Part shown: positions 4,404-10,587 of the stretch, piece after piece
Layout of the letters: the number at the start of each line of letters is the position of its first letter
Position numbering within the stretch: position 1 is the stretch's first letter
Origin: Desulfobulbus propionicus DSM 2032
GTDB lineage: Bacteria > Desulfobacterota > Desulfobulbia > Desulfobulbales > Desulfobulbaceae
Direction: 5' to 3'
Length of the DNA: 32,000 nucleotides
Assembly: GCF_000186885.1 (NCBI RefSeq)
Contig: NC_014972.1
Location: 3,540,001 to 3,572,000 of the forward strand
Translations under genes and position numbers: made by a program
Notes under the pieces: model-generated
Databases searched by the model: none
Seen by the model: the letters and a program-made list of their open reading frames with translations, nothing else
Told to the model about the DNA's origin: nothing

Positions 4404-5543
4404 TTAGGATTTACATTCAAACACGGCAATCAATTGCTGCACCGCCGCCACCGCCGGCAGGGAACCGCCTGCCACACTGCGCTCGATGTCCTTGATGATC
4501 CGGTTCACCCCCGGGTGCTTGGCAAAGAGCGAGCGCAGGTGGTCATCGACCATGTCGTGCACCCACTTGATGCTTTGCTCCCGACGATGCCGCTCAAACA
4601 CGCCGGATTTGCTCGTAATCTCGCGGTATTTGCCGATCACCTTCCAGATTGCATCGATGCCCTCGTTGGCCATGGCCGAACAGGTGTAGGCGTGCGAGAT
4701 CCAGCCCTCGGTGGAGGGTTGCAGGTAATGCAGGGCGCGTTCATATTCCGCCCGTGCCGTTTCGGCGATCAGCTTGTTCTTGCCGTCGGCCTTGTTGATC
4801 ACCAGGGCGTCGGCCAGTTCCATGATGCCCTTCTTGATCCCTTGGAGTTCATCACCGGCTCCGGCCAGCATCAAGAGTAGAAAAAAATCGACCATGGAAC
4901 GCACCGTGGTCTCGCTCTGGCCCACGCCCACGGTCTCGATCAGCACCACGTCAAAACCCGCCGCCTCGCAAACCAGCATGGTCTCGCGGGTCTTGCGCGC
5001 CACCCCGCCCAGGGTGGACCCGGCGGGCGAAGGGCGAATGAAGCAGCGCTCGTCCCGGCTCAACCGCTCCATGCGGGTCTTGTCGCCGAGGATCGAGCCG
5101 CCGGAGATGGAGCTGGACGGATCCACCGCCAGGACCGCCACCTTATGGCCCTGCTCGATCAGATGGCAGCCAAAGGTTTCGATAAAGGTGGACTTGCCCA
5201 CCCCCGGCACGCCGGTGATGCCCACCCGGATGGAGTTGCCGGTGAACGGCAGGAGGATTTTCAGCACTTCCTGCGCTTTTTCGATATGCTGGGCCGCATT
5301 GGATTCCACCAGGGTGATGGCACGGCCCAGCACGGCCCTATCTCCCTGGCGCACACCGTCGGCGTATTCCTGGGCACTCAGTTGCGGCCGGCGGTGACGG
5401 ACGGCGGGTTTGACCACCTGTTCCGTGCCCTTGTAGCTGCTGATACCGTCATGTCCGGCTTCCACCCCATCCATCACCCGGCAGGCAAAGCCCTCGCAGT
5501 TACCCTCCGGTGCCCATTCCGGCATTTTGGTGTTCAATGTCAT
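4404..5543 (-). CDS. meaB: Methylmalonyl-CoA mutase-associated G-protein chaperone MeaB/ArgK (379 aa)
   Basis: A P-loop GVPGVGKST is present, together with DRAVLGRAITLVES, VLAVDPSSSISGGSILGDKTRM and INKADG (NKxD). The gene lies immediately downstream of mutAB. AGGAGG lies upstream of ATG 5541-5543. Confidence 0.9.
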   Translation of the reverse strand: MTLNTKMPEWAPEGNCEGFACRVMDGVEAGHDGISSYKGTEQVVKPAVRHRRPQLSAQEYADGVRQGDRAVLGRAITLVESNAAQHIEKAQEVLKILLPFTGNSIRVGITGVPGVGKSTFIETFGCHLIEQGHKVAVLAVDPSSSISGGSILGDKTRMERLSRDERCFIRPSPAGSTLGGVARKTRETMLVCEAAGFDVVLIETVGVGQSETTVRSMVDFFLLLMLAGAGDELQGIKKGIMELADALVINKADGKNKLIAETARAEYERALHYLQPSTEGWISHAYTCSAMANEGIDAIWKVIGKYREITSKSGVFERHRREQSIKWVHDMVDDHLRSLFAKHPGVNRIIKDIERSVAGGSLPAVAAVQQLIAVFECKS

Positions 5544-5625
5544 TGCTCCTCCTGTGCAAAGGGTTGAAGAAGGGGCATCCCCGCACGGTGCAGCGCAAGG
5601 GTGCCCCTTGAGGGATGCGCCTTCC

Positions 5626-7806
5626 CTATTCAGCGTGCAAACGCGCCTTCAACTCCTCCAGGATCTTCATCGCCGCCACCGGAATGACCGTGCCCGGTCC
5701 GAAGATGGCCGCAGCCCCGTGGTCGCGCAGGAATTGATAATCCGGGGCCGGGATAACGCCGCCGATGACGCACATGATGTCCGGCCGTCCCAGCTTCTCC
5801 AACTCCTGCACCAGGGCCGGCAACAGAGTCTTGTGACCGGCGGCCAGCGAGCTGAAACCAACAATGTGGGCATCGTTCTCCACCGCCTGACGGGCGGCCT
5901 CCTCCGGGGTCTGGAACAGCGGGCCGATATCAACGTCAAACCCCAGATCGGCAAAGGCAGTGGAGATGACCTTGGCACCGCGGTCGTGGCCGTCCTGGCC
6001 CATCTTGGCCACCATGATGCGTGGCCGCCGGCCTTCCATCTCCTCGAACTCCTTGGTCATCTGGATAACCTTCTGCACCTCTTCCTTCTCGCTGAATTCC
6101 GCCTTGTAGACGCCTGAAATCGATCGAATCACGGCCGTATGCCTCCCCCATTTCTTTTCCAGGGCAAAACTGATTTCACCCAGTGAGGCCCGGGCCCGGG
6201 CCGCCTCGATAGACAGGGCCAACAGATTGCCCTCGCCGGTCTCGGCGCAGTGGGTCAGGGCATTGAGTGCTGCCTGACACTTGGGTTCATCACGCTCGGC
6301 CTTGAGCTTGGCCAGCCGCTTGAGCTGAGCCTCGCGCACCGCGGTGTTGTCGACCTCCAGGGTATCGAGGGCATCCTCCTTGTCCAGGCAGTAACTGTTG
6401 ACGCCGACAATCTTCTCGCGGCCGGAGTCGATACCCGCCTGGCGACGAGCCGCAGCCTCCTCGATGCGCATCTTGGGCAGACCGGTCTCGATGGCCTTGG
6501 CCATGCCGCCCAGGCTCTCGACCTCCTGAATCAGATCCCAGCCGCGCTTCATAATGGCGCCGGTGAGTGCTTCCAGATAAAACGAACCGCCCCAGGGGTC
6601 AGCCGGACGGAGGATGTTGGTCTCGTCCTGCAAATACAACTGGGTATTGCGGGCAATACGCGCCGAGAACTCGGTGGGCAGGGCGATGGCCTCGTCCAGT
6701 GAGTTGGTGTGCATCGATTGGGTATGGCCCAAAGCTGCAGCCATACCCTCGATCACCGTGCGGCAGACATTGTTAAAGGGGTCGCCCTCGGTGAGGCTCC
6801 AGCCCGAGGTCTGGCTGTGGGTACGCAGGGGCAGGGATTTGACGTTTTGCGGGTTAAAGCTCTTGATGATCTTGGCCCACAACACCCGGGCCGCGCGCAT
6901 CTTGGCGATCTCCATGAAGTAGTTCATGCCCTGCGCCCAGAAAAAGGACAGCCGCGGGGCAAAGGTGTCGATGCTCATGCCGGCGGCCACACCGGCGCGA
7001 GCATAATCCCAGCCGTCGGCCAGGGTGTAGGCCATCTCGATATCCGAGGTGGCGCCGGCCTCCTCCATGTGGTAGCCCGAAATACTGATACTGTTGTACT
7101 TGGGCATGTTTTTCGAGGTGTAGGCAAAGATGTCGGAGATAATGCGCATTGAGTTCGCCGGCGGATAGATGTAGGTGTTGCGCACCATGTATTCCTTGAG
7201 GATGTCGTTCTGGATGGTGCCGCCCAGTTGCGACTGCTTCACCCCCTGCTCCTCGGCGGCAACAATGTAAAAGGCCATGATCGGCAGCACTGCCCCGTTC
7301 ATGGTCATGGACACCGTCATCTGATCCAGCGGAATACCGGCAAAGAGCACGTTCATATCCAGGATCGAATCCACGGCCACGCCGGCCTTGCCAACATCGC
7401 CGACCACGCGCGGATGATCCGAGTCGTAACCGCGATGGGTGGCGAGGTCAAAGGCGATTGATAATCCCATCTGGCCGGCGGCCAGGTTGCGGCGGTAGAA
7501 GGCATTGCTCTCCTCGGCGGTGGAGAAACCGGCGTACTGACGTACGGTCCAGGGCCGCTGCACGAACATGGTGCCGTAGGGCCCGCGCAGGTAGGGTGGA
7601 ATACCGGCCATGTAGCTGAGGTGGTCCAGACCGTCGTAATCCTTACGAGTGTAAACCGGTTTGACATCGATCTGTTCAACCGTGCGCCAGGCCAGTTCCT
7701 CGGCGGTGAGGCCGGTCTCCTTCTTGACCTTGGCGGCCCAGGCCTGATAATCCATGGGCGCAGACACGGGTTTGAAGCCAATGGTGGTAAAATCCGGCGC
7801 ACTCAT
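5626..7806 (-). CDS. mutB: Methylmalonyl-CoA mutase large (alpha, catalytic, AdoCbl-binding) subunit (726 aa)
   Basis: The protein has full-length mutase architecture. Motifs include [28 protein letters not shown] and [15 protein letters not shown]. The C-terminal B12-binding domain carries [11 protein letters not shown] (DxHxxG). Its ATG overlaps the mutA stop as ATGA (7803-7806). Confidence 0.95.
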
Positions 7807-10330: not shown

Positions 10331-10375
10331 GGCAAAAAAAAAATCCCCGGATCAATATAAAATTGATCCGGGGAT
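10331..10375 (-). terminator. Intrinsic terminator of the distal cobalamin riboswitch
   Basis: A perfect 14-bp stem pairs ATCCCCGGATCAAT (10343-10356) with ATTGATCCGGGGAT (10362-10375) around a 5-nt loop. On the minus strand a run of 10 U follows (A10 at 10334-10343 on the + strand). Confidence 0.85.
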
Positions 10376-10438
10376 GCCCTGGTTTATCCACGTATCGGTG
10401 CCCTCCCTGGTCCAAGGGGAAAGCGCTAGTCATCTTTT

Positions 10439-10587
10439 CAGGCAGGTCTTCTGACTTCCGGATCAACCTACTTGCTGCGCCTTCCCAACCTTTTGGTCAG
10501 TGACATCATGCAGCGTTCGTCCCCGGATACAGCGGCGGGCCCGTCCCCGATTCTCACGGGGTTCCCTTTTCATCCTTGCGGAGCCTG
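10439..10587 (-). promoter_or_regulatory. Cobalamin riboswitch aptamer, distal copy
   Basis: The minus-strand RNA reads CAGGCUCCGCAAGGAUGAAAAGGGAACCCCGUGAGAAUCGGGGACGGGCCCGCCGCUGUAUCCGGGGACGAA...CACUGACC...GGUUGGGAAGGCGC...AGUCAGAAGACCUGCCUG. The conserved core, the B12 box and P1 CAGGC/GCCUG are all present. Confidence 0.9.

What the first reader, a model, noticed from the sequence alone, without database searches (positions are those of the whole stretch)
4404..10587. Cobalamin riboswitch control of a cobalamin-dependent enzyme operon (mutA-mutB-meaB)
Cobalamin riboswitches classically switch off B12 biosynthesis or transport genes and B12-independent isozymes such as metE and nrd. Here the regulated operon encodes the AdoCbl-requiring methylmalonyl-CoA mutase and its G-protein chaperone.

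If the switches are conventional OFF switches, the cell represses a B12 enzyme when B12 is plentiful, which is paradoxical. If they are ON switches (ligand-induced antitermination), that is a rare mode for this class.

I could not decide the logic by eye. The proximal platform contains an extra hairpin (GCACC-U-GUGCAGG-CGCAAGU-CCUGCGC...GGUGC). Its loop region, GCAAGUCC, is identical to a segment of the aptamer (GGUGCAAGUCCG) rather than complementary to it, so it could compete for the same partner.

The same window also encodes cobO, which makes AdoCbl, so cofactor supply and cofactor-sensing regulation are linked locally.
Basis: partly seen in the sequence, partly recalled or inferred. Interest (0 to 1): 0.7.

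Follow-up and report, generated by a model that had tools for sequence, protein, structure and literature searches.

The report
Known tandem B12 OFF-riboswitches before mutAB-meaB
Two complete vitamin-B12-sensing RNA switches sit in series in front of the B12-dependent methylmalonyl-CoA mutase operon of Desulfobulbus propionicus, but this exact pair was already catalogued and reported to repress a reporter gene in a 2022 study, so only the physiological reason for repression remains open.

Summary
Two full-length RF00174 cobalamin aptamers lie on the minus strand at 10603-10424 and 10263-10078. Each has its own P13/L13 stem-loop and intrinsic terminator. They precede mutA (9938-7803), mutB (7806-5626) and meaB (5543-4404), and cobO is at 27491-28060.

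The window is Desulfobulbus propionicus DSM 2032, NC_014972.1:3540001-3572000. Both elements are identical to "D. propionicus mutA-1" and "mutA-2" in Kennedy et al. 2022 (mBio, PMC9600662). That study lists them among exactly 38 wild-type reporters, matching the 38 it says repressed GFP in response to corrinoids. It predicts a transcriptional mode.

My analysis agrees with OFF logic:
- Every strong competitor for a terminator 5' arm is a strand that the ligand-bound fold would sequester.
- The RS1 platform is paralogous to the same genome's cbiZ and exbB riboswitches.

The tandem pair is conserved in 9 of 9 informative Desulfobulbus genomes. Its 8-nt identity to the aptamer is chance-level (12% of shuffles) and absent from the other species.

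Verdict: already known, conventional tandem OFF switches. Why a B12 enzyme is repressed by B12 is still unexplained.

The parts
10621..10650 (-). Candidate sigma-70-type promoter: -35 TTGACA (10650-10645), 17-nt spacer, -10-like TTAGGT (10627-10622)
   Evidence: The TTGACA-N17/18-TAnnnT arrangement sits at the same position in 9 of 10 Desulfobulbus leaders. It was not called by the strict consensus scan. The TSS has not been mapped.
10424..10603 (-). Distal cobalamin riboswitch aptamer (RS1, published as 'D. propionicus mutA-1'). P1 is 10591-10583 / 10443-10435 and the B12 box is 10456-10441.
   Evidence: RF00174, 116.6 bits, full model 1-189. Identical to the published sequence.
10400..10424 (-). 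RS1 P13-L13-P13' stem-loop (GCUUUCCC / CUUGGACCA / GGGAGGGC)
   Evidence: The hairpin is kept with compensatory changes in the orthologues. The authors' alignment gives the same assignment.
10334..10375 (-). RS1 intrinsic terminator: 14-bp stem AUCCCCGGAUCAAU / AUUGAUCCGGGGAU followed by U10
   Evidence: Terminator scan. Present in all 10 leaders. About -24 kcal/mol.
10078..10263 (-). Proximal cobalamin riboswitch aptamer (RS2, published as 'D. propionicus mutA-2'). P1 is 10253-10244 / 10096-10087 and the B12 box is 10110-10095.
   Evidence: RF00174, 123.4 bits. Identical to the published sequence.
10051..10086 (-). RS2 P13-L13-P13' (GAUCAGCGUAAGCGG / CCGUGGUUC / CCGUUGUUGAUC). The apex CGGCCGUGGUUCCC (10074-10061) is the predicted antiterminator strand.
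   Evidence: The core GGCCGUGGUUCCCGUU is invariant across 10 species and the rest is nearly so. The apex pairs with the terminator 5' arm in truncated-transcript folds in 7 of 10 species. The duplex is -18 to -21 kcal/mol in 8 of 10 species, against -10.8 for the P13 hairpin in those same 8 species.
10007..10047 (-). The outer stem GCACC/GGUGC is conserved and the interior is variable.
   Evidence: The interior differs in every species and the outer stem covaries (L007 has GUACC/GGUAC). The authors label this region 'P13'/terminator intervening sequence'.
9964..9999 (-). RS2 intrinsic terminator: GGGG + AACCCCUGGUCC / GAAA / GGGCCGGGGGUU followed by a U-run
   Evidence: Folding gives -21 to -29 kcal/mol. 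Compensatory arm changes occur in L004, L006 and L008. The simple scan missed it.
7803..9938 (-). mutA, methylmalonyl-CoA mutase beta (non-cofactor) subunit, 711 aa. SD AAGGAG at 9949-9944.
   Evidence: PF01642, 553 bits, with no B12-binding domain. TIGR00642, 485 bits, below its curated cutoff.
5626..7806 (-). mutB, methylmalonyl-CoA mutase alpha subunit with B12-binding domain. Its start overlaps the mutA stop (ATGA).
   Evidence: NF006944, 1262.6 bits against 876. PF01642 and PF02310 both hit.
4404..5543 (-). meaB, the MCM-associated G-protein chaperone
   Evidence: NF006958, 501 bits against 329. AGGAGG SD before ATG 5543.

Best explanation
The mutA-mutB-meaB operon of Desulfobulbus propionicus is transcribed from one promoter through a roughly 680-nt leader. 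The leader carries two independent, complete adenosylcobamide riboswitches in series. Each is a conventional transcriptional OFF switch.

Without ligand, the terminator's 5' arm is captured by an upstream strand and RNA polymerase reads through.
- In RS1 the capturing strand lies in the aptamer core (P7, P4' or P7').
- In RS2 it is the apex of the P13/L13 hairpin.

With ligand, the aptamer is locked and L13 docks onto L5. The competing strand is then unavailable, and the 12-14-bp terminator followed by a U-tract forms.

Two such switches in series give tighter and steeper repression. This is the 'pseudo-cooperative' tandem type.

Shown:
- aptamers, P13 hairpins and terminators;
- their conservation across the genus;
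- identity with the published reporter constructs.

Taken from the literature: the repressing response in a heterologous B. subtilis GFP reporter.

Inferred:
- the exact antiterminator pairings;
- operation in series in the native host;
- the physiological purpose. My best guess is that it compensates for cofactor scarcity: more apo-MCM and MeaB are made when free adenosylcobamide is low, and synthesis is trimmed when free cofactor signals that the enzyme pool is saturated.
For: - RF00174 hits at 116.6 and 123.4 bits.
- The published 'D. propionicus mutA-1' (340 nt) and 'mutA-2' (325 nt) sequences match window 10279-10618 and 9939-10263 exactly.
- Kennedy et al. [quoted passage not shown]
- Their strain table lists exactly 38 wild-type reporters, including both mutA riboswitches, with predicted mode 'Transcriptional'.
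- The tandem pair with both terminators is present in 9 of 9 Desulfobulbus loci that have enough upstream DNA.
- RS2: the terminator 5' arm pairs with the invariant L13 apex in truncated transcripts. That duplex is -18 to -21 kcal/mol in 8 of 10 species, with z-scores of -2 to -3.3 against shuffles.
- RS1: the best partners of the 5' arm (-14 to -19 kcal/mol) all lie inside the aptamer core.
- The RS1 platform aligns at 77% mean column identity with the cbiZ and exbB riboswitch platforms of the same genome, which control biosynthesis and transport genes.
- A conserved promoter lies upstream of RS1 only.
- Tandem AdoCbl doublets with separate platforms are a described class, with 26 examples.
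Against: - I could not see per-riboswitch fold-repression values. Their membership in the 38 is inferred from the count of listed strains.
- The reporter was heterologous (B. subtilis, synthetic RBS) and tested each switch alone, not the native tandem.
- ViennaRNA cannot model the L5-L13 kissing loop. Full-length MFE structures contain the terminators with or without aptamer constraints, so thermodynamics alone does not discriminate the two states.
- The RS1 antiterminator is not uniquely identified.
- The RS2 antiterminator is weak in L004 and L006.
- The physiological rationale is speculation. I could not test whether the genome has a second, unregulated MCM.
Confidence: 0.88

Rival explanations
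1. One or both riboswitches are ON switches: ligand binding prevents terminator formation, so B12 induces its own client enzyme.
For: It makes teleological sense for a B12-dependent enzyme. Cobalamin raises mutAB mRNA in Xylanibacter ruminicola, although no riboswitch is near the genes there.
Against: Both elements belong to the published set that repressed GFP with corrinoids. That study describes only repression: 38 of its 86 reporters repressed and it mentions no activating reporter. The terminator arms are 55-90 nt from P1' and do not overlap any ligand-stabilised helix. All strong competitors of the 5' arms are strands that ligand binding would sequester. The RS1 platform is paralogous to the cbiZ and exbB riboswitches, which control classical repressed targets.
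Confidence: 0.04
2. The two OFF switches are not redundant. They have different corrinoid selectivities, matched to the organism's two native cobamides (5-methylbenzimidazolyl-cobamide and p-cresolyl-cobamide). Together they would form a two-input NOR gate rather than a simple dose-sharpening doublet.
For: RS2 differs from RS1, cbiZ and exbB at L4 (UGCAAGU versus UGAGAAU), at L5 (UCCGG versus GCCCG), at P8 and in the whole platform. The organism is listed as producing both cobamide types. Kennedy et al. found both semiselective and promiscuous riboswitches.
Against: There is no selectivity information for these two elements in the text I could read. The paper reports that selectivity tracks taxonomy rather than target function, and that almost all riboswitches respond weakly to p-cresolylcobamide.
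Confidence: 0.2
3. Isoenzyme switching: this operon is one of two MCMs, or one of two propionate routes, and is needed only under cobamide scarcity. Repression by B12 then parallels metE/metH logic.
For: Kennedy et al. file the regulon under 'Corrinoid-dependent isoenzyme'. V. parvula, which also has a mutA riboswitch, carries two MCM annotations.
Against: There is no evidence here for a second MCM in D. propionicus. All ten Desulfobulbus hits were this same locus.
Confidence: 0.15

Closest known systems
'D. propionicus mutA-1' and 'mutA-2' Cbl-riboswitches (Kennedy et al. 2022, mBio 13:e01121-22; coordinates taken from RiboD)
   Same: They are identical in sequence and locus: NC_014972.1 (-) 3550279-3550618 and 3549939-3550263, equal to window 10279-10618 and 9939-10263. 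The downstream operon is the same (Despr_3086, 3085, 3084). The P13/L13 and terminator assignments match.
   Different: Nothing differs. This is the same element. The paper tested each switch singly in B. subtilis and did not discuss why a corrinoid-dependent enzyme is repressed.
Veillonella parvula mutA and Selenomonas sputigena mutA Cbl-riboswitches (same study)
   Same: These are cobalamin riboswitches upstream of methylmalonyl-CoA mutase genes that repress a reporter in response to corrinoids.
   Different: Each is listed as a single riboswitch. They come from Negativicutes, not Desulfobulbia.
Tandem same-ligand ('pseudo-cooperative') AdoCbl riboswitch doublets (Sudarsan et al. 2006; Sherlock et al. 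2022, 26 doublets), for example P. megaterium cbiW-1/cbiW-2
   Same: Two complete AdoCbl riboswitches sit in one 5' UTR, each with its own terminator.
   Different: The usual targets are biosynthesis or transport genes. Here the target is a cofactor-using enzyme and its chaperone.
D. propionicus cbiZ and exbB Cbl-riboswitches
   Same: The aptamer architecture is the same. For RS1 the platform is recognisably homologous: GGAC in L13, a CACC/GGAUAAA/GGG spacer and an AUCCCGGAUC...GAUCCGGGAU terminator.
   Different: They control corrinoid biosynthesis, remodelling and transport genes, and each is a single switch.
EutX/Rli55 AdoCbl-riboswitch sRNA of Enterococcus and Listeria
   Same: B12 sensing is coupled to a B12-dependent catabolic pathway through an OFF-type AdoCbl riboswitch (own knowledge; a related Listeria case is cited).
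   Different: In that system the riboswitch truncates a trans-acting sRNA, so B12 ends up inducing the pathway. Here the switches lie in cis in the mRNA leader and B12 represses.

Membership tests
Cobalamin riboswitch (Rfam RF00174) | Full-length match to the covariance model above the gathering score | tested here: met
   116.6 and 123.4 bits against 31.5, covering model positions 1-189 for both.
Cobalamin riboswitch (Rfam RF00174) | B12 box (consensus about AGYCMGGAGACCKGCC) forming the 3' side of the core | tested here: met
   AGUCAGAAGACCUGCC at 10456-10441 and AGCCAGAAGACCUGCC at 10110-10095.
Cobalamin riboswitch (Rfam RF00174) | P13/L13 stem-loop after P1 that can kiss L5 | tested here: inconclusive
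   P13 hairpins are present and conserved in both units. L5-L13 complementarity is only about 3 bp (CCG:UGG), and pseudoknots cannot be modelled with the tools used.
Cobalamin riboswitch (Rfam RF00174) | Binds or responds to adenosylcobamide | not testable with these tools
   Published reporter response to corrinoids (PMC9600662).
Transcriptional OFF riboswitch | Intrinsic terminator downstream of each aptamer | tested here: met
   RS1: 14-bp stem plus U10. RS2: 12-bp stem plus U-run. Both are present in all orthologues.
Transcriptional OFF riboswitch | Antiterminator that is mutually exclusive with the ligand-bound fold | tested here: met
   RS2: the L13 apex pairs with the 5' arm at -18 to -21 kcal/mol in 8 of 10 species. 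RS1: the best partners are aptamer-core strands, but no single one is conserved, so RS1 alone would be inconclusive.
Transcriptional ON riboswitch | A terminator arm that overlaps, or is sequestered by, a ligand-stabilised helix | tested here: not met
   There is no overlap with P1'. With the aptamer helices enforced the terminators still form. No competitor strand is ligand-dependent in the ON sense.
Tandem same-ligand riboswitches with separate expression platforms | Two complete units in one 5' UTR with no promoter or ORF between them | tested here: met
   Two aptamer-plus-terminator units. No promoter-like site in the spacer, and a conserved promoter only upstream of RS1. The TSS has not been mapped experimentally.
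Methylmalonyl-CoA mutase heterodimer with MeaB chaperone | Alpha subunit with mutase and B12-binding domains, beta subunit without a cofactor domain, and a MeaB GTPase | tested here: met
   MutB hits NF006944 (1262 bits), PF01642 and PF02310. MutA hits PF01642 only. MeaB hits NF006958 (501 bits).

The most novel reading that the evidence does not exclude
The paired OFF switches are a cofactor-economy device rather than simple end-product repression. Free adenosylcobamide would report that the MCM pool is saturated. Under scarcity the cell would over-produce apo-MCM and MeaB to win the cofactor. The two aptamers might also be tuned to the organism's two different native cobamides, giving two-input logic. 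All experimentally reported mutA riboswitches that I saw come from producers of phenolyl cobamides or close relatives of such producers. This hints at a link between this regulation and cobamide type.
Probability: 0.25. Interest if true: 0.45.

Novelty: already known. Interest (0 to 1): 0.15.

Why it matters
It shows that cobalamin riboswitches do not only shut off B12 supply and B12-independent isozymes. They can also repress a B12-consuming core enzyme. That fact is already in the literature for this very locus and for two Negativicutes.

What remains useful is the unanswered physiological question: why does a propionate-metabolising sulfate reducer turn down its central mutase when cobamide is plentiful? 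The genus-wide conservation shown here makes the system a clean test case for that question.

Tried and rejected
- ON-switch logic. I looked for terminator arms overlapping P1' or stabilised helices and found none.
It is rejected because the hairpin interior is variable and the 8-mer identity is chance-level.
- Cross-unit loop complementarity. RS1 L13 GGAC could pair with RS2 L4 GUCC, and RS2 L13 GGUUC with RS1 L4 GAAUC. I dropped this for two reasons. The authors' structural alignment shows that L5, not L4, is the kissing partner. The RS2 L4 GUCC is present in only 3 of 10 species.
- Constrained versus unconstrained ViennaRNA folding as a discriminator. It was uninformative because terminators dominate the MFE and kissing loops are not modelled.
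- Column-wise covariation counting on the RS2 platform (alignment A3). I abandoned it because one-base register shifts in the terminator 3' arm would create false breaks. Per-species duplex energies replaced it.
- Searches for an explicit discussion of B12 elements upstream of MCM, or of Desulfobulbus regulation. They found nothing beyond Kennedy et al..
- A second MCM paralogue in D. propionicus.
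Full report
**What is there**

Rfam cmscan of the window gives exactly two hits. Both are full-length RF00174 cobalamin aptamers on the minus strand, at 10603-10424 (116.6 bits) and 10263-10078 (123.4 bits), against a gathering score of 31.5.

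Reading the leader 5' to 3' on the minus strand:
- a TTGACA-N17-TTAGGT promoter-like site at 10650-10622;
- aptamer 1;
- a P13/L13 hairpin at 10424-10400;
- a 14-bp terminator followed by U10 at 10375-10334;
- a spacer of about 70 nt;
- aptamer 2;
- a long P13/L13 hairpin at 10086-10051;
- a spacer hairpin at 10047-10007;
- a 12-bp terminator followed by a U-run at 9995-9964;
- AAGGAG at 9949-9944 and the mutA ATG at 9938.

The ORF lister's start at 10013 lies inside the leader and is not the real start.

- mutA, 9938-7803, has a mutase domain only.
- mutB, 7806-5626, scores 1262 bits on NF006944 and carries a B12-binding domain. Its start overlaps the mutA stop by ATGA.
- meaB, 5543-4404, scores 501 bits on NF006958.

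cobO/cobA is at 27491-28060 (-), inside a corrinoid cluster with a CobN-like chelatase and two BtuB-like receptors.

**Where it comes from, and what is already published**

MutA has 72-85% identical orthologues in ten Desulfobulbus genomes. A literature search led to Kennedy et al. 2022 (mBio 13:e01121-22, PMC9600662).

Its Table S1B lists two riboswitches from Desulfobulbus propionicus DSM 2032:
- "D. propionicus mutA-1", NC_014972.1 (-) 3550279-3550618;
- "D. propionicus mutA-2", NC_014972.1 (-) 3549939-3550263.

For both, the table gives:
- downstream operon Despr_3086 (mutA), Despr_3085 (mutB), Despr_3084 (meaB);
- category "Corrinoid-dependent isoenzyme";
- predicted mode "Transcriptional".

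Both printed sequences occur exactly in the window, at 10279-10618 and 9939-10263. The window is therefore NC_014972.1:3540001-3572000. The paper took its coordinates and regulon assignments from the RiboD database.

[quoted passage not shown] The strain table lists exactly 38 wild-type reporters by my count. [quoted passage not shown]

So this exact pair has been tested, one switch at a time, in a B. subtilis GFP reporter, and falls in the repressing set. I could not see the figure panels. The per-element magnitudes and corrinoid profiles are therefore not known to me.

**Independent check of the switch logic**

The tandem arrangement, with both terminators, is present in all nine Desulfobulbus loci that have enough upstream DNA. 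The terminators show compensatory changes. In RS2, for example, L004, L006 and L008 change both arms.

*RS2.* The core GGCCGUGGUUCCCGUU of the P13/L13 element is invariant in all ten species, and the flanking stem is nearly so. In transcripts truncated before the terminator 3' arm, the 5' arm (GAACCCC[C/U]GGUCC) pairs with the L13 apex GGCCGUGGUUC in 7 of 10 species.

The apex × 5'-arm duplex is -18 to -21 kcal/mol in 8 of 10 species (z = -2 to -3.3 against shuffles). It covers the whole arm and is more stable than the P13 hairpin, which is -10.8 kcal/mol in those 8 species. In this riboswitch class, ligand binding stabilises the L5-L13 kissing loop, as annotated in the authors' alignment. That would hold the apex away from the terminator arm, so ligand gives termination.

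*RS1.* The strongest partners of the terminator 5' arm (-14 to -19 kcal/mol) are all aptamer-core strands: the P7 5' strand AUCCGGGGA, the P4' strand GAAUCGGGGA, and the P7' strand UUGAUCCGG. These are unavailable once the aptamer is folded around its ligand, which again gives OFF logic. No single partner is conserved, so the exact RS1 antiterminator is not settled.

The RS1 platform aligns at 77% mean column identity with the platforms of the same genome's cbiZ and exbB riboswitches, which control corrinoid biosynthesis and transport. All four aptamers share one architecture.

Nothing supports ON logic. No terminator arm overlaps P1' or any ligand-stabilised helix. Enforcing the aptamer helices leaves the terminators intact.

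A caveat applies. ViennaRNA cannot model the kissing loop, and full-length MFE structures always contain the terminators. The in-silico argument rests on which competitors exist, not on a computed ligand-dependent energy switch.

The hairpin GCACC...GGUGC exists at 10047-10007, and its GCAAGUCC matches aptamer L4 at 10210-10203. Three results argue against a functional role for that match:
- The hairpin interior differs in every other species, while the outer stem is kept and covaries (L007 has GUACC/GGUAC).
- A shared 8-mer arises in 12% of shuffles.
- The authors' alignment places this hairpin in the variable stretch between P13' and the terminator, where other riboswitches in their alignment also show paired segments.

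It is a spacer hairpin, not a decoy of the aptamer.

**One transcript or two?**

A TTGACA-N17/18-TAnnnT motif sits at the same place upstream of RS1 in 9 of 10 species. The RS1-RS2 spacer and the 25 nt between the RS2 terminator and the SD contain no promoter-like site. The two switches therefore most likely act in series on one transcript. This is the described "pseudo-cooperative" tandem type, with 26 AdoCbl doublets catalogued by Sherlock et al. 2022. The TSS has not been mapped.

**The 'paradox'**

[quoted passage not shown] It does not explain why a dependent enzyme is repressed.

My preferred reading is inference only. The free adenosylcobamide level reports whether the MCM pool is saturated. 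When it is low, the cell makes more apo-MCM and its chaperone to secure the cofactor for its central propionate pathway. When it is high, synthesis is trimmed.

Two alternatives remain open:
- Isoenzyme switching. V. parvula has two MCM annotations, but I could not test D. propionicus.
- Different corrinoid selectivities of the two aptamers, which do differ at L4, L5 and P8.

**Verdict**

The element is a conventional tandem pair of transcriptional OFF cobalamin riboswitches that is already catalogued and experimentally tested. Novelty: already known. Interest: low. The residual value lies in the unexplained physiology and in the genus-wide conservation documented here.

Noticed in passing
window 21045-31986 (-): A corrinoid salvage and uptake cluster: CobN-like chelatase (21045-24851), nitrilase/amidase-like protein (24818-26398), radical SAM/SPASM protein (26439-27494), cobO/cobA (27491-28060) and two BtuB-like TonB-dependent receptors (28118-30121, 30157-31986). 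There is no RF00174 hit in the window for this cluster, so any leader would lie beyond position 32000.
   Followed up: partly
L002 2005-2205 (-) and L006 1860-2044 (-): In two Desulfobulbus genomes a third RF00174 aptamer lies just upstream of the tandem pair on the opposite strand. It presumably controls a divergent gene. It is absent from the window. In L006 no ORF of 80 aa or more follows it closely.
   Followed up: partly
L010 2174-4104: In one MAG the sequence after the RS2 terminator differs from all other species. The mutA ORF is only 547 aa, with a split mutase-domain match. This could be a rearrangement, an insertion or a misassembly.
   Followed up: partly
window 10413-10416 and 10203-10206; 10063-10067 and about 10545-10549: There is reciprocal loop complementarity between the two units. 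RS1 L13 GGAC could pair with RS2 L4 GUCC, and RS2 L13 GGUUC with RS1 L4 GAAUC. The RS2 L4 GUCC is present in only 3 of 10 species, and L4 is not the known kissing partner, so this is probably chance.
   Followed up: partly
window about 5550-5625 (-): The 82-nt mutB-meaB intergenic region contains a GC-rich inverted repeat (AAGGGGCA...UGCCCCUU) without a U-tract, followed by AGGAGG and the meaB ATG. It may be an mRNA-stability or processing element.
   Followed up: no
window 1592-2284 (-), 11734-12967 (-): A weak Rad52/22-like ORF and a ParA-family ATPase with a small downstream ORF flank the operon region. This hints at mobile-element or plasmid-derived genes nearby.
   Followed up: no
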